DNA of 11,037 nt from a virus: the UHGV virus genome UHGV-0862315. One strand, 5' to 3'. Made by a program: the position numbers and the translations under genes. Below, one piece after another: positions 1 through 11,037 of the stretch. Each line of letters begins with the position of its first letter. The first letter of the stretch is position 1. The notes under the pieces were generated by a model that worked only from the letters and a program-made list of their open reading frames with translations, did no database searches and was not told the origin of the DNA.

Positions 1-58
1 GCCCCATAGCATCGAGGCAGAGCAGGCGGTGATTGGTGGATTGCTTCTGGATGATGAC
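1..58 (+). repeat. 58-bp exact direct repeat; second copy at 1177-1234 inside the 5' end of the helicase gene
   Basis: Direct comparison: bases 1-58 match 1177-1234 exactly and diverge at base 59 (g versus a at 1235). Confidence 0.85.
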
Positions 59-91
59 GTTAACTTATTAGGCGAATTCTTCGAGGCCTGA
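2..91 (+). other. 3' end of an ORF entering from upstream (frame 2); ends ...PHSIEAEQAVIGGLLLDDDVNLLGEFFEA, stop TGA 89-91
   Basis: Open frame from the window edge to TGA at 89-91. The first 19 codons duplicate the helicase N-terminal peptide, then the frame diverges. Start not visible. Confidence 0.35.
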
Positions 92-125
92 TGTAGAAAG
101 ACTGGATCAATCCACAGGAGTAATT

Positions 126-287
126 ATGACAAAACGTCGTAAGAAATACCAGGAAAAAGAAGAGATTCGACACCCTGATTCACCTGAGGGATTAGTGGTA
201 GCCGCAGCAAATAACAGGGCGTTCGCAGAGCGCCTTGTTGGTGTTTACAGACTAGCCAAAGCAGGAGTGAAACATGGGCGTCGTTAA
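126..287 (+). CDS. small basic hypothetical protein (53 aa, MTKRRKKYQEKEEIRHPDSPEGL...)
   Basis: ATG at 126 preceded by GGAG (117-120); open to TAA 285-287. Below the ORF-track size cut-off. Sits immediately upstream of the initiator gene. Function unknown. Confidence 0.4.
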   Translation: MTKRRKKYQEKEEIRHPDSPEGLVVAAANNRAFAERLVGVYRLAKAGVKHGRR

Positions 288-336
288 GTTAGCTGATTAC
301 AGGCATAACCCTGTACAACATCAGGAGGCATCCAGT

Positions 337-1164
337 ATGGGGTATGTCTCTATACACCGCCAGTTTATGGACAGCAGGCTCTATAAGGACTCTCAGGCAG
401 TACATCTTTGGCTTCACTTAATCCTCAAGGCTAATCACGAATCTACTGTCGTCAATACGGATATTGGGCCGATAACTGTTGATCGCGGTCAGATGATAAC
501 TGGACGCCCGTCGCTGGTCAGAGAAACATTCATCCCCGACAACAAAGTTCGGAGCTTATTACGGACTTTTGAGTCGAAAGGGATGCTTAATATTTGCTCG
601 ATGGGGAAGAAATTTAGCCTGTTTACAATCGTTAAATATGACGATTTTCAGGCAAAAAATTGTCCAACGGTTGTCCAACAGTTGTCCAACGCAAACACCA
701 GTAATGGTGCGGCTCTCAGCGGAGATTGTCCAACGGTTGTCCAACGGTTGTCCATAAACAATAATATAAATAATATCTCTAATACTGACGTATTAGAGAG
801 TGCCACAGCAGACAAAAAGTCTGACAAGAAAAAACCTTCCGTCAGCTGTCAGGATGTTGTCGATGCTTACCACGAAATCCTTCCTGAAGCGCCAAGAATC
901 CGCGCACTGAATGACAAGCGTAAAAACCAGATCCGAACGTTCTGGCGCAAAGCCGGAGTGATAACCCGCCAGCTTGACGGGCATGGGTTCACGATGCAGG
1001 ACTGGAGAAATTATTTGAGCTACGTAGGCGAAAATTGCCGATGGATGTTCGAAGAGCGCCCAAACCATCAGCGCGGAACCGTCTGGCACAAAAAGGGATT
1101 TGATTTCCTGCTTAACGATAATACCTACCTGAAAGTTCGTGAGGGTGAACACGATGACCGATAA
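337..1164 (+). CDS. phage replication initiator / replisome organiser (lambda O-like, P22 gene 18-like); alternative upstream start at 274
   Basis: Track ORF 274-1164. ATG 337 has AGGAGG at 323-328; ATG 274 has AGGAG at 262-266. N-terminus MGYVSIHRQFMDSRLYKD resembles the start of a replisome-organiser domain (recalled, not searched). The central linker is encoded by origin iterons (protein repeat CPTVVQQLSN). Immediately followed by, and overlapping, a DnaB-like helicase gene. Confidence 0.8.
   Translation: MGYVSIHRQFMDSRLYKDSQAVHLWLHLILKANHESTVVNTDIGPITVDRGQMITGRPSLVRETFIPDNKVRSLLRTFESKGMLNICSMGKKFSLFTIVKYDDFQAKNCPTVVQQLSNANTSNGAALSGDCPTVVQRLSINNNINNISNTDVLESATADKKSDKKKPSVSCQDVVDAYHEILPEAPRIRALNDKRKNQIRTFWRKAGVITRQLDGHGFTMQDWRNYLSYVGENCRWMFEERPNHQRGTVWHKKGFDFLLNDNTYLKVREGEHDDR
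660..758 (+). repeat. origin iterons: six copies of an 11-bp unit (core TTGTCCAAC) in two clusters of three (660-692, 726-758) separated by 33 bp
   Basis: Seen directly: ttgtccaacgg / ttgtccaacag / ttgtccaacgc, then a 33-bp spacer, then ttgtccaacgg / ttgtccaacgg / ttgtccataaa. Period 11 bp, so units stay in helical phase and in reading frame. Confidence 0.8.
755..795 (+). other. AT-rich tract flanking the iterons (candidate DNA unwinding element of the origin)
   Basis: aaacaataatataaataatatctctaatactgacgtatt is very AT-rich and lies directly 3' of the iterons, the arrangement known for lambda ori inside gene O. Confidence 0.6.
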
Positions 1165-2590
1165 TTTTTATGCGCCGCCCCATAGCATCGAGGCAGAGCA
1201 GGCGGTGATTGGTGGATTGCTTCTGGATGATGACAGCAGTGAGCGCGTCCGGAAAGTTCTGGCGATGCTGAAGCCTGATTCATTTTACAGCCGACCACAC
1301 AAAATCCTTTTCGAAGAAATAACCAGAATGCACCGGGAGCAAAAGCCAGTAGATGGGCTGACGCTTTTCGATGAACTGGAGCGCAAATCGTTAACGGCGT
1401 CTGTTGGCGGTTTTGCTTATATCGCTGAGATCGCAAAGAACACGCCAAGCGCAGCAAACATCGTTGCCTATGCAATGCAGGTTCGTGAAACCGCAATGGA
1501 ACGCTACGCCATCAACCGCATGACTGAAGCGACGGAATTGCTCTATTCCCGCAACGGAATGACTGCAACACAGAAGTACGAAGCTATTCAGTCGATTTTC
1601 ACGCAACTGACAGACCATGCAAAAACCGGATCGCGTCGCGGCCTTCGCTCATTTGGTGAGGTCATGGAAGACTGGGTTAGCGACCTTGAGAAGCGATTTG
1701 ACCCGTCAGGCGAACAACGAGGAATGAGCACAGGGATCCCATCGCTGGACAGGATGCTGTCACCGAAAGGTCTGGTGAAAGGCTCTCTGTTTGTCATTGG
1801 CGCTCGCCCTAAGATGGGGAAAACGACGCTATACAGCCAGATGGCAATCAACTGCGCAGTGCATGAGAAAAAGCCAGCTCTGATGTTCAGCCTTGAAATG
1901 CCCGGTGACCAGATACTGGAAAAACTGGTAGGACAGAAGTCAGGTGTTAACCCGAATATTTTTTACCTTCCGGCGACAAATGACGCTGATGACGGCTATC
2001 AGGGTGATTACGATGGTGACTTCAATAGGGCGATCGAAACAGCCAATCGCTTGAGTGAAATCGACCTGCTTTACATCGACGACACGCCGGGATTATCTCT
2101 GGCTCAAATCGTCAGCGAAAGCCGTCGAATCAAGCGGGAAAAAGGATGTGTTGGCATGATTCTGGTCGATTACCTGACACTAATGACCGCTGAAAAGGCC
2201 GATCGCAACGACCTTGCATACGGCATGATCACCAAAGGACTGAAGAACCTTGCCAAAGAGCTTGATTGCGTTGTTGTGCTTCTGACACAGCTTAATCGCG
2301 CATTGGAAAGCCGAACCAATAAACGCCCATTACCAAGTGACTCGCGCGATACAGGGCAGATTGAACAGGATTGCGATTATTGGGTGGGGATCCATCGTGA
2401 AGGCGCTTTTGATGACAGTGTTCCACCTGGTGAAACCGAACTAATCCTTCGCCTCAATCGTCATGGCAATACCGGCACGGTGTATTGCATTCAGGCAAAT
2501 GGCGCTATTTATGACACAGACCAACAGTCTGCTGAAATGCGCCGACGTGAACGCGAGGAACCGCAGTCCAAGAAGAAAGGAGGATTCTGA
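1154..2590 (+). CDS. DnaB-family replicative helicase (P22 gene 12-like)
   Basis: Track ORF 1139-2590. Preferred start ATG 1154 with GAGGG at 1142-1146; GTG 1139 is possible. Overlaps the initiator stop (1162-1164). Recognisable motifs: N-terminal PHSIEAEQAVIGGLLLDD, Walker A GARPKMGKT, LLTQLNR. Confidence 0.9.
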   Translation: MTDNFYAPPHSIEAEQAVIGGLLLDDDSSERVRKVLAMLKPDSFYSRPHKILFEEITRMHREQKPVDGLTLFDELERKSLTASVGGFAYIAEIAKNTPSAANIVAYAMQVRETAMERYAINRMTEATELLYSRNGMTATQKYEAIQSIFTQLTDHAKTGSRRGLRSFGEVMEDWVSDLEKRFDPSGEQRGMSTGIPSLDRMLSPKGLVKGSLFVIGARPKMGKTTLYSQMAINCAVHEKKPALMFSLEMPGDQILEKLVGQKSGVNPNIFYLPATNDADDGYQGDYDGDFNRAIETANRLSEIDLLYIDDTPGLSLAQIVSESRRIKREKGCVGMILVDYLTLMTAEKADRNDLAYGMITKGLKNLAKELDCVVVLLTQLNRALESRTNKRPLPSDSRDTGQIEQDCDYWVGIHREGAFDDSVPPGETELILRLNRHGNTGTVYCIQANGAIYDTDQQSAEMRRREREEPQSKKKGGF

Positions 2591-2618
2591 TGACCATCTA
2601 CATCACTGAGCTTGTAAC

Positions 2619-2650
2619 AGGCCTGCTGGTAATCGCAGGCCTTTTTATTT
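2619..2650 (+). terminator. intrinsic terminator between helicase and ninB (position analogous to lambda tR2)
   Basis: Stem aggcctgc (2619-2626), loop tggtaatc, stem gcaggcct (2635-2642), then ttttattt (2643-2650). Confidence 0.7.
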
Positions 2651-2666
2651 GGGGGAGAGGGAAGTC

Positions 2667-3107
2667 ATGAAAAAACTAACCTTTGAAATTCGATCTCCAG
2701 CACATCAGCAAAACGCTATTCACGCAGTACAGCAAATCCTTCCAGACCCAACCAAACCAATCGTAGTAACCATTCAGGAGCGCAACCGCAGCTTAGACCA
2801 GAATCGAAAGCTTTGGGCTTGCCTTGGTGACGTTTCTCGTCAGGTTGAATGGCATGGTCGCTGGCTGGATGCAGAAAGCTGGAAGTGTGTGTTTACCGCA
2901 GCCTTAAAGCAGCAGGACGTTGTTCCCAACCTTGCCGGGAATGGCTTTGTGGTAATAGGCCAGTCAACCAGCAGGATGCGTGTAAGCGAATTTGCGGAGC
3001 TATTAGAGCTTATACAGGCATTCGGTACAGAGCGTGGCGTTAAGTGGTCAGACGAAGCGCGACTGGCTCTCGAATGGAAAGCGCGATGGGGAGACAGGGC
3101 GGCATGA
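2667..3107 (+). CDS. ninB: NinB (recombination mediator, lambda NinB-like, 146 aa)
   Basis: ATG 2667 with a purine-rich RBS (gggggagagggaag). Sequence [28 protein letters not shown]... matches lambda NinB as I recall it, and the length matches. The track start at 2649 is a TTG upstream. Confidence 0.85.
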
Positions 3108-3286
3108 GACGACAGCGACGAAGTTTCACCGACATCATCTGCGAAAACTGCAAATACCTTCCAACGAAGCGCTCCAGAAATAAACGCAAGCCAATCCCAA
3201 AAGAATCTGACGTAAAAACCTTCAATTACACGGCTCACCTGTGGGATATCCGGTGGCTTAGAGAACGTGCGAGGAAAACAAGGTGA
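3104..3286 (+). CDS. ninE: NinE-like small protein (60 aa, [27 protein letters not shown]...)
   Basis: ATG 3104 overlaps the ninB stop (ATGA). 60 aa, basic. Recalled resemblance to lambda/DLP12 NinE; the ninD versus ninE naming is not fully certain. Confidence 0.7.
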
Positions 3287-3453
3287 TTGACCCAAATCGA
3301 AGTTACGAACAAGAAAGCGTCGAGCGGGCTTTAACGTGCGCTAACTGCGGTCAGAAACTGCATGTGCTGGAAGTTCACGTGTGCTCCGATTGCTGCGCAG
3401 AACTGATGAGCGATCCGAATAGCTCAATGTACGAGGAAGAAGACGATGAATGA
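3283..3453 (+). CDS. small CxxC...CxxC zinc-ribbon protein (56 aa), NinF-like (possibly NinD-like)
   Basis: GTG 3283 overlaps the previous stop (GTGA); open to TGA 3451-3453. Translation [56 protein letters not shown] has four Cys in a C4 pattern and an acidic tail. Below the ORF-track size cut-off. Confidence 0.6.
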
Positions 3454-4168
3454 GTTAATAAATGGCAATGCCATCAAAATGACAAGCATTGAAATCGCTG
3501 AGTTGGTGGGTAAGCGTCATGACAATGTGAAACGTACCATCGAAACGCTGGCTAAAAATGGTGTTATCCGGCTTCCTCAAATTGAGGTTTCCGAAAGAAT
3601 CAATAACTTAGGGTTCAATGTTCAGTACGAGCATTACGTCTTCGAGGGCGAACAAGGTAAGCGAGACAGTATTGTCGTTGTTGCCCAGTTGTCGCCAGAG
3701 TTCACCGCTCGCCTTGTTGACCGCTGGCGAGAGCTTGAAGAAGCTGCGGTTAATATCCCCAAAACGCTACCGGAAGCGTTGCGCCTTGCTGCCGATCTTG
3801 CTGAGCAGAAAATGCAACTGGAAAACCAGCTCGCAATTGTCGCACCTAAAGTTGAGTTTGCCGATCGCGTTGGCGAGGCCAGCGGAATTTTGATTGGAAA
3901 CTTTGCAAAGGTTGTTGGTATTGGTCAAAACAAACTGTTTGCGTGGATGCGTGATCACAAAATCCTTATTGCTTCAGGTTCCCGGCGCAATGTGCCAATG
4001 CAGGAATATATGGATCGCGGCTATTTCACAGTGAAAGAAACAGCGGTCAACACAAATCACGGAATACAGATATCGTTCACCACAAAAATCACCGGGCGCG
4101 GTCAACAGTGGCTGACCAGAAAGTTGCTCGATAACGGAATGCTGAAAGTAACAGGGGAGGCTGCTTAA
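3446..4168 (+). CDS. Rha-family phage regulatory protein with C-terminal KilA-C/antirepressor-like domain (240 aa)
   Basis: ATG 3446 with GAGGAAG RBS. N-terminal block SIEIAELVGKRHDNVKRTIETL is typical of the Rha N-domain; the C-terminal half looks KilA-C-like. Domain assignment is from memory of the families. Confidence 0.75.
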   Translation: MNELINGNAIKMTSIEIAELVGKRHDNVKRTIETLAKNGVIRLPQIEVSERINNLGFNVQYEHYVFEGEQGKRDSIVVVAQLSPEFTARLVDRWRELEEAAVNIPKTLPEALRLAADLAEQKMQLENQLAIVAPKVEFADRVGEASGILIGNFAKVVGIGQNKLFAWMRDHKILIASGSRRNVPMQEYMDRGYFTVKETAVNTNHGIQISFTTKITGRGQQWLTRKLLDNGMLKVTGEAA

Positions 4169-4458
4169 TGGCTAACCTACGCAAAGAAGCACGCGGCAGA
4201 GAATGCCTGGTACGTATTTACGGCGTATGCAATGGCAATCCTGAAACTACAGTTCTGGCACATTACCGGATGGCTGGAATTTGCGGAACGGGAATGAAGC
4301 CTGACGACCTGATCGGTGCATGGGCTTGTAGTGCGTGTCACGATGAAATCGACCGACGCACCCATAATCTCGACAACAAAGACGCCAGACTTTACCACCT
4401 CGAAGGCGTGATCAGAACGCAGGCGATACTGCTGAGGGAGGGGAAGATTAAGTCATGA
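4168..4458 (+). CDS. ybcO: YbcO-like DUF1364 protein (putative nuclease, 96 aa)
   Basis: ATG 4168 overlaps the upstream stop (TAATG) with GGAGG 8 nt upstream. Cys/His-rich (CNG...CGTG...CSACHDE). Size and position directly 5' of rusA match the DLP12 ybcO-rusA arrangement as I recall it. Confidence 0.7.
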   Translation: MANLRKEARGRECLVRIYGVCNGNPETTVLAHYRMAGICGTGMKPDDLIGAWACSACHDEIDRRTHNLDNKDARLYHLEGVIRTQAILLREGKIKS

Positions 4459-4817
4459 ACGAATATCAGTTTGTGCTTCCATACCCGCCGTCGGTGAATA
4501 CCTACTGGCGAAGACGGGGAAGCCAATATTACATAAGCGATAAAGGCCAGAAATACCGAAAAGACGTTCAGCAAATCATCCGCCAACTCAAGTTAGACAT
4601 TTTCACCAAATCACGACTCCGTATCAAAGTCATCGCAGACGTTCCAGACTCCCGCCGCCGCGACCTCGACAACATCCTGAAAGGTTTACTCGACTCCCTT
4701 ATCCACGCCGGATTTGCGGAAGACGACGAGCAATTCGATGACATTCGCGTAATTCGTGGTGTGAAAGTACCAGGCGGACGGCTTGGAATAAAAATCACCG
4801 AACTGGAGAACGCATGA
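4455..4817 (+). CDS. rusA: RusA-family Holliday junction resolvase (120 aa)
   Basis: ATG 4455 overlaps the ybcO stop (ATGA). Translation PYPPSVNTYW...PDSRRRDLDNILKGLLDSL...GGRLGIKITEL carries the conserved RusA acidic motif (recalled against E. coli RusA). Confidence 0.85.
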   Translation: MNEYQFVLPYPPSVNTYWRRRGSQYYISDKGQKYRKDVQQIIRQLKLDIFTKSRLRIKVIADVPDSRRRDLDNILKGLLDSLIHAGFAEDDEQFDDIRVIRGVKVPGGRLGIKITELENA

Positions 4818-5002
4818 ACGCCACAATTCAAACGATACCAGAGCTTCTTATCCAGACACGAGGCAATCAGACCGAAGTGGCAAGGATGCTTTCCTGCGCA
4901 AGAGGAACAGTGCTCAAGTACAACCGAGACAGCAAAGGCGAGCGTCACGTAATAGTTAACGGCGTCCTGATGGTCAAACAGGGCAAGAGGGGAAGACGAT
5001 GA
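4814..5002 (+). CDS. ninH: NinH-like small DNA-binding protein (62 aa)
   Basis: ATG 4814 overlaps the rusA stop. GNQTEVARMLSCARGTVLKY is an HTH-like segment resembling lambda NinH (recalled). Confidence 0.7.
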   Translation: MNATIQTIPELLIQTRGNQTEVARMLSCARGTVLKYNRDSKGERHVIVNGVLMVKQGKRGRR

Positions 5003-5621
5003 GACTCGAAAGCGTAGCTAAATTTCATTCGCCAAAAAGCCCGATGATGAGCGACTCACCACGGGCTACGGCTTCTGACTCTCTTTCCGGTACTGATGTG
5101 ATGGCTGCTATGGGGATGGCGCAATCACAAGCCGGATTCGGCATGGCTGCATTCTGTGGTAAGCACGAACTCAGCCAGAACGACAAACAAAAGGCTATCA
5201 ACTATCTGATGCAATTTGCACACAAGGTATCGGGGAAATACCGTGGTGTGGCAAAGCTCGAAGGAAATACTAAGGCAAAGGTACTGCAAGTGCTCGCAAC
5301 ATTCGCTTATGCGGATTATTGCCGTAGTGCCGCGACGCCGGGCGCAAGATGCAGAGATTGCCACGGTACAGGCCGTGCGGTTGATATAGCAAAAACAGAG
5401 CAGTGGGGAGAGTTGTTGAGAAAGAGTGCGGAAGATGCAAAGGCGTCGGCTATTCAAGAATGCCTGCAAGCGCCGCATATCGCGCTGTAACGATGCTAAT
5501 CCCAAACCTTACCCAACCCACCTGGTCACGCACTGTTAAGCCGCTGTATGACGCTCTGGTGGTGCAATGCCACAAAGAAGAGTCAATCGCAGACAACATT
5601 TTGAATGCGGTCACACGTTAG
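4999..5621 (+). pseudogene. Q: late antiterminator Q (lambda Q-like), split by a 1-nt frame disruption in a G4 run at 5405-5408
   Basis: Track ORFs 4999-5490 (frame 1) and 5403-5621 (frame 0) together encode one Q-like protein. Adding one G at 5405-5408 yields a continuous 207-aa product (...TEQWGRVVEKECGRCKGVGYSRM...), the length of lambda Q. Lies immediately upstream of the PR'/qut region. Confidence 0.8.
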
Positions 5622-5663
5622 CAGCATGATTGCCACGGATGGCAACATATTAACGGCATGATA

Positions 5664-5692
5664 TTGACTTTTTGAATAAACTTGGGTAAATT
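5664..5692 (+). promoter_or_regulatory. late promoter PR' (-35 TTGACT 5664-5669, 17-bp spacer, -10 TAAATT 5687-5692), with the Q-utilisation (qut) region overlapping it
   Basis: Near-consensus sigma70 hexamers with 17-bp spacing directly downstream of Q. Context matches lambda PR'/qut as I recall the lambda sequence. Confidence 0.65.
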
Positions 5693-5699
5693 TGACCCA

Positions 5700-5891
5700 A
5701 CGATGGGTTAATTCGCTCGTTGTGGTAGTGAGATAAAAAGAGGCGGCGCTTACTACCGATTCCGCCTAGTTGGTCACTTCGACGTATCGTCTGGAACTCC
5801 AACCATCGCAGGCTGAGAGGTCTGCAAAATGCAATCCCGAAACAGTTCGAAGGTAATAGTTAGAGCCTGCACAACGGTTTCGGGATTTTTT
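5700..5891 (+). ncRNA. short PR' leader transcript (lambda 6S RNA equivalent) ending at tR'
   Basis: Predicted start about 7 nt after the -10; ends at the terminator 5834-5892; no ORF with an RBS in between. Assigned by analogy to the lambda 6S transcript. Confidence 0.5.
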
Positions 5892-5892: not shown

Positions 5893-6250
5893 TATCTGCA
5901 CAACAGGTAAGAGCATTAAAGAACTGGCAAAGAGCTTAACGGTCTGCGAAAGCATTTCTTAGTGGCACAACTGGCCGGTACAACTGAGTGCTCTTTCCGG
6001 TGTGGTGAATGCGCAGGCTGATGCGCGCAGGAGAGCTTCGGAAGAACAAGGTGCCTGTATACAAGCCGGAGATCAGCGCCGGCCACCACAGCCAAATCCA
6101 CCCAGAGCAAAACCGTTGTTCATCCTTACCATTCCCTCAGTATTTTGGACTACAACCCTCAGCCCATTTTTTAAAGCGTACTTCCACCAAGAACTAGACC
6201 TAACCAACTCATTGCTGACACTCTGTGGATACGGTTGTCTAGTGCGCTTT

Positions 6251-7226: not shown

Positions 7227-7690
7227 GCAGAGTCACCGCGATTATCTCCGCTCTGGTTATCTGCATCATCGTCTGCCTGTCATGGGCTGTTAATCATTAC
7301 CGTGATAACGCCATGACCTACAAAGAGCAGCGCGATAACAAGGCCAGTGAACTGGAGAAGGCGAACGCCACCATTACTGACATGCAGCAGCGCCAGCGTG
7401 ATGCTGATGCACTCGATGCTAAATACACGAAGGAGTTAGCTGATGCGAAAGCTGAAAATGATGCTCTTCGGCGCAAGCTTGATAATGGTGGCAGGGTGCT
7501 CGTCAAAGGAAAATGCCCTGTGCCATCCTCAGACGAAACCTCCAGCGCCTCCGGCATGGGCAATGATGCCACCGTCGAACTCTCTCCAGTTGCTGGACGA
7601 AACGTTCTCGGTGTCCGGGACGGAATTATCCGCGACCAAACAGCACTGAGAACGCTTCAGGAATACATCAGGACGCAATGCCTTCGATGA
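7223..7690 (+). CDS. Rz: spanin inner-membrane subunit Rz (155 aa)
   Basis: ATG overlaps the R stop (ATGA). N-terminal transmembrane segment [14 protein letters not shown] followed by a charged coiled-coil-like region. Position after R. Confidence 0.85.
7443..7649 (+). CDS. Rz1: spanin outer-membrane lipoprotein Rz1, embedded in Rz in the +1 frame
   Basis: ATG 7443 with AAGGAG RBS. Lipobox LIMVAGC and proline-rich PPAPPAW. Lies entirely inside Rz in another frame, the classic Rz/Rz1 arrangement. Confidence 0.75.
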
Positions 7691-7890: not shown

Positions 7891-8031
7891 TCTGAATTTC
7901 ACAGCGCATCTCACGCGCATATTAACGAGAGCCTTTCAGTAAGCGAGCCTGAGAAATGCCGTTATAGGTGGCGACCTCTCTCGGGCGGCTTTTCTGTGAG
8001 ACAGGCTCACTTTCTAAAAGGTAAAGACGCT

Positions 8032-8556
8032 ATGAATAATCATTCAGTTATTCCAGCCTTCGACTTCCGAGAAATGGTGCAAGCCAAAAACGGAGAGGTC
8101 GTTACCACATCCAGAAAAATTGCCAAGTACTTCGGCAAGCGACACGGTGATGTTCTCAGGAAAATCGAGCAGGTTAAGGCTGATTGCTCGCGTGAGTTTA
8201 GCCAACGCAATTTTGCGTCGGCTGATTATATCGATGAGCAGGGCAAGGTTCGCCCGATGTACAGCCTGACGAAAGATGGCTGGATCATGGTTGTGATGGG
8301 GTTCACCGGGAAAGCTGCTGCGGCAATCAAGGAGAGCTATATCGCAGCATTCAACTGGATGGCAGAGCAACTGAGCCGCCGCATGGCAATTGGCGAAGAA
8401 ATGCAGCACCGCTACGCCATCAAAGAAACACGCTCAAAGCTGAAAGGTACGATCGGCAGTCGGTTAATGAACGAACGGAAGAAAGAGAAGCGTGTCCTGG
8501 CTGTCGAGCATGAATACATCTTGCAGGTGACGCAGCCCGAATTGCTGATTAATTGA
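8032..8556 (+). CDS. rha: Rha-family phage regulatory protein (174 aa)
   Basis: ATG 8032 with AAGG about 10 nt upstream (the track's alternative start is 7996). SRKIAKYFGKRHGDVLRKIEQ and MYSLTKDGWIMVVMGFTGKAA are Rha-domain-like. Position between lysis and terminase genes resembles P22 rha (recalled). Confidence 0.8.
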   Translation: MNNHSVIPAFDFREMVQAKNGEVVTTSRKIAKYFGKRHGDVLRKIEQVKADCSREFSQRNFASADYIDEQGKVRPMYSLTKDGWIMVVMGFTGKAAAAIKESYIAAFNWMAEQLSRRMAIGEEMQHRYAIKETRSKLKGTIGSRLMNERKKEKRVLAVEHEYILQVTQPELLIN

Positions 8557-9623: not shown

Positions 9624-11037
9624 TAACCTGAGCGACGAAGAGCAAATCGAATTGCTCGAGCTACTCGAAGAAGAAGAGAACTACCGAAACACACACCTGC
9701 TATATGAATTTACGCCATACAACAAACAGCGTGAGTTCATCGACGCCGGACATGACTATCCAGAGCGATGTTTTATGGCTGGTAACCAGCTTGGTAAGTC
9801 ATTTACTGGTGCTGCCGAAGTCGCGTTTCACCTTACCGGGCGTTATCCGGGAACAAAAGGATATCCGGCTGATGGTAAATATGGCGGAGAGTGGAAAGGT
9901 AAGCGTTTCTATGAGCCTGTTGTTTTCTGGATTGGCGGCGAGACAAACGAGACGGTAACCAAAACGACTCAACGCATCCTGTGCGGTCGTATCGAAGAGA
10001 ATGATGAGCCTGGCTACGGTTCCATACCGAAAGAGGACATCATTAGCTGGAAGAAGTCTCCTTTCTTTCCGAATCTTGTTGATCACCTTCTGGTTAAGCA
10101 TCACACGGCTGATGGCGTTGAAGATGGCATTTCAATCTGCTACTTCAAACCATACTCGCAAGGCCGTGCTCGCTGGCAGGGTGACACAATCCACGGCGTG
10201 TGGTTTGACGAAGAGCCACCATACAGCATTTATGGCGAAGGTCTTACCCGTACCAACAAATACGGTCAATTCTCAATTCTGACGTTTACCCCGCTGATGG
10301 GGATGTCTGACGTTGTTACCAAGTTCCAGAAGAATCCCAGCAAGTCGCAGAAAGTGGTCAACATGACCATCTATGACGCTGAGCACTATACCGACGAGCA
10401 GAAAGAGCAAATCATCGCATCCTATCCAGAGCATGAGAGAGAGGCGCGTGCTCGCGGTATTCCTACGATGGGTAGTGGTCGAATCTTCCAGATACCGGAA
10501 GAGACGATTAAGTGTCAGCCGTTCGAGTGTCCTGATCACTTCTACGTAATTGGCGGGATGGATTTCGGATGGGATCACCCACAGGCGCAGGTTCAGCTTT
10601 GGTGGGATAAGGATGCAGACACAATCTACGTTTCACGCGTGTGGAAGGCGAAAGAAAAACAGCCGTTCAGGCGTGGGGAGCAGTTAAATCATGGGCGCAT
10701 AAAGTGCCAACCGCATGGCCTCATGACGGAAACCAGCACGAGAAGGGCGGCGGTGAGCAGCTTAAAGGGCAGTACGCGGAAGCTGGTTTTATGATGTTGC
10801 AGGAGCATGCGACATGGCCTGATGGCGGTAATGCTGTTGAGCCTGGCATCACTGAATTGCGCGACATGATGCTTGATGGTCGCTTCAAAGTATTCAACAC
10901 CTGTGAGCCATTCTTTGAGGAGTTTCGCCTCTATCACCGTGATGAAACGGGAAATCGTCAAGCTTAACGACGACGTGCTCTCCGCCGTTCGCTATGCATA
11001 CATGATGCGCCGCTTCGCCAAAATGATGCGCGACATC
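9601..11037 (+). pseudogene. terminase large subunit (P22 gp2-like), reading frame broken at about 10655 and restored at about 10945-10955; 3' end beyond the window
   Basis: GTG 9601 overlaps the small terminase 3' end. Frame 1 (9601 to about 10659) carries the ATPase part (AGNQLGKS); frame 0 (10641-10967) carries nuclease-domain-like motifs (AWPHDG...EKGGGEQ); frame 1 resumes at 10963 (LNDDVLSAVRYAYMMRRFAKMMRDI). Both disruptions fall in A runs. Confidence 0.8.

What the first reader, a model, noticed from the sequence alone, without database searches (positions are those of the whole stretch)
1..1234. 58-bp perfect direct repeat brackets the origin/initiator segment; window opens inside an ORF ending in a helicase-like peptide
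Bases 1-58 are identical to 1177-1234, the 5' coding region of the DnaB-like helicase. In the first copy the frame reads PHSIEAEQAVIGGLLLDDD, then diverges (VNLLGEFFEA) and stops at 89-91. The repeats flank about 1.18 kb holding the small ORF, the initiator gene and its origin. This looks like a recombination scar (module exchange or partial duplication leaving a helicase 5' remnant) and could mediate deletion or duplication of the origin segment. HpaI, EcoRI and StuI sites cluster in 59-91, which would be worth excluding as a construct junction. An assembly artefact is also possible.
Basis: seen in the sequence. Interest (0 to 1): 0.5.

Follow-up and report, generated by a model that had tools for sequence, protein, structure and literature searches.

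The report
Chimeric three-piece joint at window edge
The first 70 bases of this ordinary Sf6/HK620-like phage replication region are a patchwork of three nearby phage genes joined at 4-5-base overlaps. This is most likely a chimeric read or misjoin at the end of a low-quality contig, and less likely a genuine duplication of the replication origin.

Summary
The 58-bp exact repeat (1-58 = 1177-1234) is real, but its left limit is the window edge, so 58 bp is a minimum. The segment between the copies is a standard lambdoid replication module: orf53, an O-like initiator with six TTGTCCA iterons, then a DnaB-like helicase.

The joint has three pieces:
- Helicase codons 9-27 (1-58).
- Twelve bases (59-70) that, with their flanks (55-75, 21 nt), exactly match the 434-type cI repressor gene of Sf6 and Huey, in inverted orientation.
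- The native last codons of cII (71-91).

The overlaps are TGAC and GGCGA. In Huey, all three pieces lie within 2.2 kb.

The EcoRI and StuI sites are native to cII, and the HpaI site is native to cI, so this is not a cloning junction. No phage, plasmid, E. coli genome, viral, genome or metagenome collection contains the joint.

The window carries four single-base homopolymer deletions that break genes. Three are private and lie in the last 400 bases, which looks like a low-coverage contig end.

Most likely (about 0.6) this is a template-switch chimera at a contig end. The rival (about 0.3) is a genuine microhomology-mediated tandem duplication of the 1,176-bp origin unit. Low interest.

The parts
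1..58 (+). First copy of the repeat: helicase codons 9-27 (PHSIEAEQAVIGGLLLDDD). It is truncated by the window edge.
   Evidence: Identical to 1177-1234. Relatives match it only at their helicase 5' end, and every match stops at base 58. Pfam DnaB N-terminal domain E 1.4e-4, just under the family's cut-off (22.3 against 23 bits).
55..75 (+). A 21-nt exact match to the coding strand of the 434-type cI repressor gene (protein ...DSDVNLLGDG...), inverted relative to its native orientation. Bases 59-70 (GTTAACTTATTA, including the HpaI site) are the only bases unique to it. Bases 55-58 (TGAC) are shared with the helicase and 71-75 (GGCGA) with cII.
   Evidence: Exact 21-mer on the minus strand of Huey (L001 455-475), Sf6 (L031 455-475) and L006. 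Phage 434 itself has one mismatch. The repressor allele occurs in Huey, HK446, Sf101, 434, lambda imm434, HK633 and Sf6. Bases 59-70 are matched by none of the fetched relatives in a direct (same-strand, collinear) alignment.
71..91 (+). Native 3' end of the cII-like activator gene (GEFFEA, stop at 89-91), containing EcoRI (74-79) and StuI (84-89).
   Evidence: 100% identical from base 71 onward in Huey, IME10, mEpX2, HK446, HK542 and many more.
101..133 (+). Conserved intergenic 'boundary sequence' (bsq5 in the Sf6 annotation), where several relatives begin to match.
   Evidence: Sf6 feature at L031 1531-1563. Some relatives align only from base 101.
126..287 (+). orf53, a small conserved gene of unknown function.
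   Evidence: phrog_1331, E 1.4e-37. Annotated in relatives as hypothetical or HK97 gp53-like.
274..1164 (+). O-like replication initiator gene.
   Evidence: phrog_345 'replication initiation O-like', E 2.5e-85. The identical 296-aa protein is listed in 365 blocks of the assembly collection.
660..810 (.). Putative origin inside the initiator gene: two clusters of three 11-bp-phased TTGTCCA(AC) iterons (660-688 and 726-754), followed by an AT-rich stretch.
   Evidence: The equivalent Sf6 stretch is annotated as a putative rep_origin.
1154..2590 (+). DnaB-like replicative helicase gene. Bases 1177-1234 are the second (native) copy of the repeat.
   Evidence: Pfam DnaB and DnaB_C. phrog_19, E 8.3e-137. 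The identical 478-aa protein occurs in 155 blocks, always with a normal cII upstream.

Best explanation
The first 70 bases are a chimeric extension at the end of a low-coverage, error-prone contig. They do not reflect the structure of the phage genome.

The proposed route is a nascent DNA strand that changed template twice:
1. It copied the helicase 5' region.
2. Its TGAC 3' end re-annealed on the opposite strand inside the cI repressor gene about 2.2 kb upstream, and it was extended by 12-17 nt.
3. Its GGCGA 3' end then re-annealed at the end of cII, and synthesis continued rightwards.

Such molecules are typical products of strand-displacement or whole-genome amplification, or of other polymerase template switching. 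They can also be rare in vivo by-products in a replicating phage pool. A single read of this kind can define a contig end.

Shown here: the three-part composition, the inverted orientation, the microhomologies, the uniqueness of the joint, and the sequence errors at the other end of the window.

Inferred: that the window is a whole contig, and that the joint rests on few reads.
For: - **Accounting for every base:** bases 1-75 are explained by three pieces of one Sf6/Huey-type genome that lie within 2.2 kb in Huey (L001: cI 455-475 on the minus strand, cII 3' end from 1501, helicase up to 2664). The filler matches the Sf6/Huey cI allele exactly and the phage 434 allele with one mismatch. Sf6 and Huey are also the best matches to window 71-1300, at 99.0-99.4%.
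- **Junction signature:** both junctions are strand inversions between sites less than 10 kb apart, with 4- and 5-nt complementarity. Lasken & Stockwell report this signature for MDA chimeras: 85% inverted, with complementarity of at least 2 nt (up to 21) in 93.5% of proximal inverted joins, and about 1 chimera per 22 kb of reads (PMC1855051).
- **Position:** the joint lies 58-70 nt from the window start.
- **Sequence quality:** three single-base deletions in A-runs (10655, 10948, 10952) break the large terminase gene in the last 400 nt. They are absent from all 201 E. coli genome records that match this stretch (each spans 481 nt against the 478-nt query) and from IME10. The surrounding sequence is 99.5-100% identical to IME10, which points to sequencing error at a thinly covered contig end.
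- **Uniqueness:** the joint is absent from 50,697 phage records, 5,426 E. coli genomes, 72,556 plasmids, 2.9 M viral contigs, GTDB representative genomes and JGI metagenomes. No chimeric ORF turned up in a search of the 5.8-billion-cluster protein collection.
- **Contiguity:** the sequence runs unbroken from the joint through 1234 into the rest of the helicase. A short-read assembler would not do this if both exits from the repeat were equally covered (inference).
Against: - I could not obtain the source record, reads or coverage, so the claim that the window start is a contig start is inferred, not shown.
- A double switch with only a 12-nt middle piece is not the typical single-junction MDA chimera. 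Lasken & Stockwell analysed two-segment chimeras.
- There are no private substitutions or indels in the first 460 nt, so the left end shows no independent sign of low quality.
- All three pieces are read in their native frames (a 1-in-9 coincidence).
- The same microhomology and filler signature is produced by genuine in vivo template switching.
- The fourth homopolymer deletion (in Q) yields the same 163-aa product as an independent Logan contig. It is therefore not private, so not every frameshift in the window need be an error.
Confidence: 0.6

Rival explanations
1. A genuine tandem direct duplication of the 1,176-bp unit (cII 3' end, orf53, O with its origin, helicase 5' end) exists in a phage or prophage, and the window happens to start 58 nt before the novel joint. 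It would have formed in vivo by serial microhomology-mediated template switching (FoSTeS/MMBIR-like). Alternatively, a tandem inversion duplication was trimmed by two microhomology deletions until only 12-21 nt of the inverted middle copy remained. A deletion between two tandem prophage copies would give the same topology.
For: - The joint runs from a downstream gene to an upstream gene on the same strand, which is the topology of a tandem-duplication novel joint.
- A templated inverted filler flanked by 4-5-nt microhomologies is the hallmark of FoSTeS/MMBIR and TID-type events, as summarised in PMC4689423.
- The fusion is in frame and ends at the native cII stop.
- Prophage decay joints do exist in relatives. 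The E. coli H3 prophage has lost most of O and the helicase-to-Q stretch. Other helicase 5' remnants are on record.
- The Q frameshift also occurs in an independent sample, so the source could be a decaying prophage.
Against: - The upstream copy is unseen.
- If windows are cut arbitrarily, a cut within 70 nt of the joint has a chance of about 0.6%.
- If the contig broke because of the repeat, a short-read assembler should also have broken at 1234.
- A 1.16-kb direct repeat is unstable in a phage that encodes its own recombinase, and in a recA+ host (established knowledge).
- The joint is found in no other genome.
- The three terminase deletions are private and clustered.
Confidence: 0.3
2. An engineered cloning or construct junction, as suggested by the cluster of HpaI, EcoRI and StuI sites.
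For: Three six-base restriction sites lie within 31 bp (59-89).
Against: - EcoRI and StuI lie in the native cII 3' end, which is identical from base 71 in many natural phages.
- HpaI is part of the 434-type cI coding sequence.
- No vector, linker or foreign base is present, because every base of 1-91 is phage-derived.
- Neither junction falls at a restriction cut site.
Confidence: 0.03
3. A complete, unrelated natural gene, or an unknown cII allele, that naturally ends with ...DDDVNLLGEFFEA. On this reading the identity to the helicase would be incidental.
For: cII alleles are mosaic upstream of base 71, and some relatives align only from 101.
Against: - 58 nt of exact DNA identity to the helicase and 21 nt to cI cannot be incidental.
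- No cII allele in the collections searched matches upstream of base 71.
- No protein on record has this C-terminus joined to anything.
Confidence: 0.02

Closest known systems
Template-switch chimeras of multiple displacement amplification (Lasken & Stockwell 2007, PMC1855051)
   Same: The joined segments come from the same molecule and lie less than 10 kb apart. Each junction is a strand inversion. A few complementary bases (here 4 and 5) sit at each junction. In an assembly, such joints are expected in single reads or at contig ends.
   Different: There are two consecutive switches with only 12 unique nt between them, giving a net direct (not inverted) rearrangement. The published analysis covers two-segment chimeras. 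Whether the source DNA was amplified is unknown.
In vivo microhomology-mediated complex duplications: FoSTeS/MMBIR, and tandem inversion duplications of Salmonella (Kugelberg et al. 2010, as described in PMC4689423)
   Same: A direct-duplication novel joint carrying a short templated insertion copied in inverted orientation from nearby sequence, flanked by microhomologies.
   Different: The second copy is not visible. There is no evidence of selection for amplification. That deletions remodel a TID down to a short inverted remnant is my recollection, not something read here.
Sf6/HK620/HK022-type lambdoid replication module (cII, orf53, O with internal iteron origin, DnaB-type helicase)
   Same: Gene order and sequence match: 99.0-99.4% identity to Huey, IME10, mEpX2 and Sf6 over 71-1300. 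The iteron origin lies in the same place as the annotated Sf6 origin.
   Different: Only the 70 bases upstream of the cII 3' end differ. All relatives have the rest of cII there.
Lambda-dv-type origin plasmids (own knowledge)
   Same: An illegitimate novel joint connects a point right of the origin to a point in the immunity region, and would circularise an origin-containing segment.
   Different: The 1,176-bp unit lacks pR, cro and a complete helicase. The window also continues linearly into late genes, so it is not a dv-type replicon.

Membership tests
Lambdoid (Sf6/HK022-type) replication module | O-like initiator protein | tested here: met
   phrog_345, E 2.5e-85, full length. The identical protein is widespread in prophages.
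Lambdoid (Sf6/HK022-type) replication module | Iteron cluster plus AT-rich stretch inside the initiator gene | tested here: met
   Six TTGTCCA copies at 11-bp phasing; 0 of 200 shuffles reach six. GC is 0.30 at 751-810. The equivalent Sf6 stretch is annotated as rep_origin.
Lambdoid (Sf6/HK022-type) replication module | DnaB-type helicase gene immediately downstream, overlapping the end of the initiator gene | tested here: met
   Pfam DnaB and DnaB_C. Its start at 1154 overlaps the end of O at 1164.
Lambdoid (Sf6/HK022-type) replication module | Origin fires in vivo | not testable with these tools
   Requires an experiment.
Amplification or sequencing template-switch chimera | Joined pieces derive from one molecule, close together | tested here: met
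   All three pieces lie within 2.2 kb in Huey; Sf6 has the cI 21-mer and the cII 3' end at the same locus positions.
Amplification or sequencing template-switch chimera | Strand inversion at the junction, with 2-21 nt of complementarity | tested here: met
   The cI piece is on the opposite strand. The overlaps are TGAC and GGCGA, and these match the criteria in PMC1855051.
Amplification or sequencing template-switch chimera | Supported by few reads, absent from unamplified DNA, located in a low-coverage contig end | tested here: inconclusive
   Indirect only. The joint lies 58-70 nt from the window start, and three private homopolymer deletions lie in the last 400 nt. Reads and the source record could not be obtained.
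Genuine tandem duplication of the origin unit | Novel joint running from downstream to upstream sequence on the same strand | tested here: met
   Helicase 5' end, then filler, then cII 3' end.
Genuine tandem duplication of the origin unit | A full second copy of the unit upstream, and doubled read depth | not testable with these tools
   The window starts inside the first copy, and no upstream sequence or reads are available.
Engineered cloning junction | Restriction sites, linker or vector sequence foreign to the parental DNA at the joint | tested here: not met
   EcoRI and StuI are native to cII. HpaI is native to cI. No base is left unaccounted for.

The most novel reading that the evidence does not exclude
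The joint is real and fixed in the genome. On this reading, an Sf6/Huey-like (pro)phage carries a tandem duplication, or an amplifiable array or excised 1,176-bp circle, of its origin-plus-initiator unit. The unit would have been created by origin-proximal serial template switching, leaving a 12-nt inverted cI footprint. That would be a natural example of replication-error-driven origin amplification in a lambdoid phage.
Probability: 0.2. Interest if true: 0.35.

Novelty: not a real feature. Interest (0 to 1): 0.12.

Why it matters
If it is an artefact, its value is practical. The first 70 bases of this record should be trimmed, and the helicase-like ORF ending at 91 should not be annotated. 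The frameshifts in the large terminase gene, and probably in Q, should be treated as probable errors rather than pseudogenes.

If it is real, it would be a neatly resolved case of microhomology-mediated, templated-filler duplication of a phage origin module. That mechanism is already known, so this would be a modest addition. The module itself is a textbook Sf6/HK022-type replication region.

Tried and rejected
- **Looking for the joint elsewhere.** BLAST of 1-1300, 1-140, 1-75 and 1-200 against phages, E. coli genomes and plasmids found nothing. Exact-pattern scans of viral, genome and metagenome contigs for the whole joint and for each half-joint gave 0 hits.
- **Locating the source contig to read upstream.** Exact-protein look-ups were run with O, the helicase, the truncated terminase and the truncated Q. 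O and the helicase always sit downstream of a normal cII. The truncated terminase is not on record. The truncated Q occurs only in an unrelated 3.5-kb Logan contig. A scan of GTDB genomes with O returned 6 loci, with no N-masked neighbour and no joint. Scans for the private terminase deletion k-mer gave 0 hits.
- **Protein search.** A hypothetical 40-aa chimera was used as the query, because the visible 29-aa peptide was too short. No chimera is on record.
- **E. coli H3 hit.** It seemed to cover 94% of 1-200, but it is a different thing: a decayed prophage with normal gene order and internal deletions.
- **Alternative helicase or cII allele.** I tested whether 59-70 could belong to one. All matches stop at 58 or start at 71.
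- **Sf6 boundary sequence.** I tested whether the joint sits on bsq5. It does not, because bsq5 corresponds to 101-133.
- **Local source for the filler.** Within the window there is only a 2-mismatch chance-level match.
- **Mate-pair or circularisation junction.** Rejected, because the filler is phage cI sequence, not a linker.
- **Low quality at the left end.** I looked for private substitutions there and found none in 71-460.
Full report
**Observation.** Bases 1-58 are identical to 1177-1234, with a start-to-start spacing of 1176. The first copy begins at the window edge, so 58 bp is a lower bound on the repeat length. Frame 2 of 2-91 reads PHSIEAEQAVIGGLLLDDDVNLLGEFFEA*.

The second copy is the native 5' end of a DnaB-like helicase gene at 1154-2590 (Pfam DnaB and DnaB_C; phrog_19). 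Between the copies lie two genes:
- orf53 (126-287, phrog_1331).
- An O-like initiator (274-1164, phrog_345, E 2.5e-85).

The initiator contains two clusters of three 11-bp-phased TTGTCCA iterons, followed by an AT-rich stretch. This is the position where Sf6 is annotated with a lambda-like origin.

**What the window is.** It is an ordinary mosaic P22-like/lambdoid early-right and late region. It runs from the cII 3' end through O, the helicase, the nin genes, Q and the lysis genes to the small and large terminase genes.
- Bases 71-1300 are 99.0-99.4% identical to phages Huey, IME10, mEpX2 and Sf6.
- The whole window is covered 70% by IME10 and up to 88% by E. coli prophages, at about 96-97% identity.

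**Anatomy of the joint.** Every relative matches 1-58 only at its own helicase 5' end, and every such match stops at base 58. Every relative matches from base 71 (or 101) at the end of cII.

In Huey, cII ends ...KEKAPKNGEFFEA*. Window 71-91 is therefore the native cII 3' end, and the EcoRI (74-79) and StuI (84-89) sites are natural.

The 12 remaining bases (59-70, GTTAACTTATTA) looked like orphan filler. Together with their flanks, however, window 55-75 (TGACGTTAACTTATTAGGCGA, 21 nt) is an exact match to the coding strand of the cI repressor gene of Huey, Sf6 and one E. coli prophage. There it encodes ...DSDVNLLGDG....

That repressor is the 434-type immunity repressor. Phage 434 itself differs at one base of the 21. 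The filler therefore matches the allele carried by the same phages that best match the rest of the window.

The repressor is transcribed leftward, so the piece is inverted in the window. The sequence reads helicase(+) | cI(-) | cII(+), with these overlaps:
- TGAC (55-58), shared between the helicase and cI.
- GGCGA (71-75), shared between cI and cII.

In Huey coordinates the three donor sites lie within 2.2 kb (L001 455-475, 1501 and 2664). All three pieces are read in their native frames, which has a 1-in-9 chance. No base of 1-91 is foreign, and the HpaI site belongs to cI. The construct-junction idea is rejected. The joint is also not at the Sf6 boundary sequence bsq5, which maps to window 101-133.

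**Uniqueness.** The joint, and each half of it, is absent from every collection searched:
- 50,697 phage records, 5,426 complete E. coli genomes and 72,556 plasmids.
- Exact scans of IMG/VR viral contigs, GTDB representative genomes and JGI metagenomes.

A protein search with the hypothetical 40-aa fusion found helicase 5' fragments of other origins but no such fusion. I could not find the source contig by any route. What lies upstream of base 1 remains unknown.

**Sequence quality.** Compared with relatives, the window carries four single-base deletions in homopolymers that break genes:
- G5 to G4 at 5405 in Q.
- A6 to A5 at 10655 in the large terminase gene.
- A4 to A3 at 10948 in the large terminase gene.
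- A4 to A3 at 10952 in the large terminase gene.

The three terminase deletions lie in the last 400 nt. The surrounding sequence is 99.5-100% identical to IME10. All 201 matching E. coli genome records span 481 nt against the 478-nt query, so the deletions are private to the window.

Three private homopolymer undercalls with almost no substitutions look like sequencing error in thin coverage. This suggests the window's 3' end is a contig end and that the 11,037-base window is a whole contig (inference).

The Q deletion is less clear. An independent Logan contig that is 97.4% identical over the shared region encodes the same truncated 163-aa product.

**Interpretation.** A joint made of nearby pieces, inverted at each junction and with a few complementary bases at each, is the signature reported for strand-displacement (MDA) chimeras. 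The published figures are as follows (PMC1855051):
- 85% of chimeras are inverted.
- Joined sites are mostly less than 10 kb apart.
- Complementarity of at least 2 nt (up to 21) is present in 93.5% of proximal inverted joins.
- There is roughly one chimera per 22 kb of reads.

The joint also sits 58-70 nt from the window start. If the duplication were real and the window cut were arbitrary, that position would have a chance of about 0.6%. A chimeric read that extends a contig end lies there by construction.

The sequence continues without a break past 1234 into the rest of the helicase. A short-read assembler would not do this if the exit into the joint were as well covered as the exit into the helicase (inference).

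I therefore rate a chimeric read or misjoin at a contig end, including a rare rearranged molecule captured by one read, at about 0.6.

**Rival.** Genuine in vivo template switching gives the same signature. Candidate mechanisms are FoSTeS/MMBIR, or a tandem inversion duplication trimmed by microhomology deletions (models summarised in PMC4689423). That such trimming leaves a short inverted remnant is my recollection.

The topology, from a downstream gene to an upstream gene on the same strand, is that of the novel joint of a tandem duplication of the 1,176-bp unit (cII 3' end, orf53, O with its origin, helicase 5' end).

Several points favour the rival:
- A double switch with a 12-nt middle piece is atypical for MDA.
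- The left end shows no private errors.
- The fusion is in frame.
- Decayed prophages with deletion joints exist among relatives.

I give this about 0.3. Such a 1.16-kb direct repeat would be recombinationally unstable (established knowledge), and it has not been seen in any other genome.

**Verdict.** The 'recombination scar' reading is partly supported: the joint is a two-step, microhomology-mediated, templated-filler joint. The construct reading is refuted. The underlying module is a textbook Sf6/HK022-type replication region. Interest is low. Upstream sequence, spanning-read counts and depth over 71-1234 would settle the question.

Noticed in passing
window 5400-5410 (Q gene, 4999-5621): A G5-to-G4 deletion relative to 9 relatives splits the Q antiterminator into a 163-aa ORF and a 72-aa ORF. 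An independent Logan contig (ERR10497706_996), 97.4% identical over the shared region (window 4166-5721), encodes the same 163-aa product. This may therefore be a real, recurrent or inherited frameshift rather than an error.
   Followed up: partly
window 10655, 10948, 10952 (large terminase gene, 9601 to the window end): Three single-base deletions in A-runs break the large terminase gene and together restore the frame after about 100 codons. They are absent from IME10 and from all 201 matching E. coli genome records. The flanking sequence is 99.5-100% identical to IME10, so these are probably sequencing errors at a low-coverage end.
   Followed up: yes
L032 1416-1568 and L033 1014-1224 (metagenome contigs): In two human-gut metagenome contigs, the same helicase allele is interrupted by an IS629 (IS3-family) end. 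The interruption is within 1-4 nt of the window's breakpoint (...CTGGATGATGA|ACCGCCCCGGG). The search only recovered breaks in the first ~40 codons, so the coincidence is weak (about 10%).
   Followed up: partly
L002 6001-7960 (E. coli H3 chromosome NZ_CP028732.1): This is a decayed P22-like prophage. The equivalent of window 464-1125 (most of O, including the origin) and of 2005-5227 (helicase 3' end through the nin region into Q) are deleted. It is an example of genuine deletion joints in this module.
   Followed up: partly
window 5918-6222 and 7447-7654: These two stretches had no counterpart of at least 90% identity in any of the relatives fetched by then (about 30 loci). One lies between Q and the holin gene, and the other is in the 3' part of the Rz-like gene. 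They were not examined further.
   Followed up: no
window 7996-8556: A 186-aa ORF lies between the lysis cassette and the terminase genes, at the position where relatives carry Rha or KilA-N family genes. It was not characterised.
   Followed up: no
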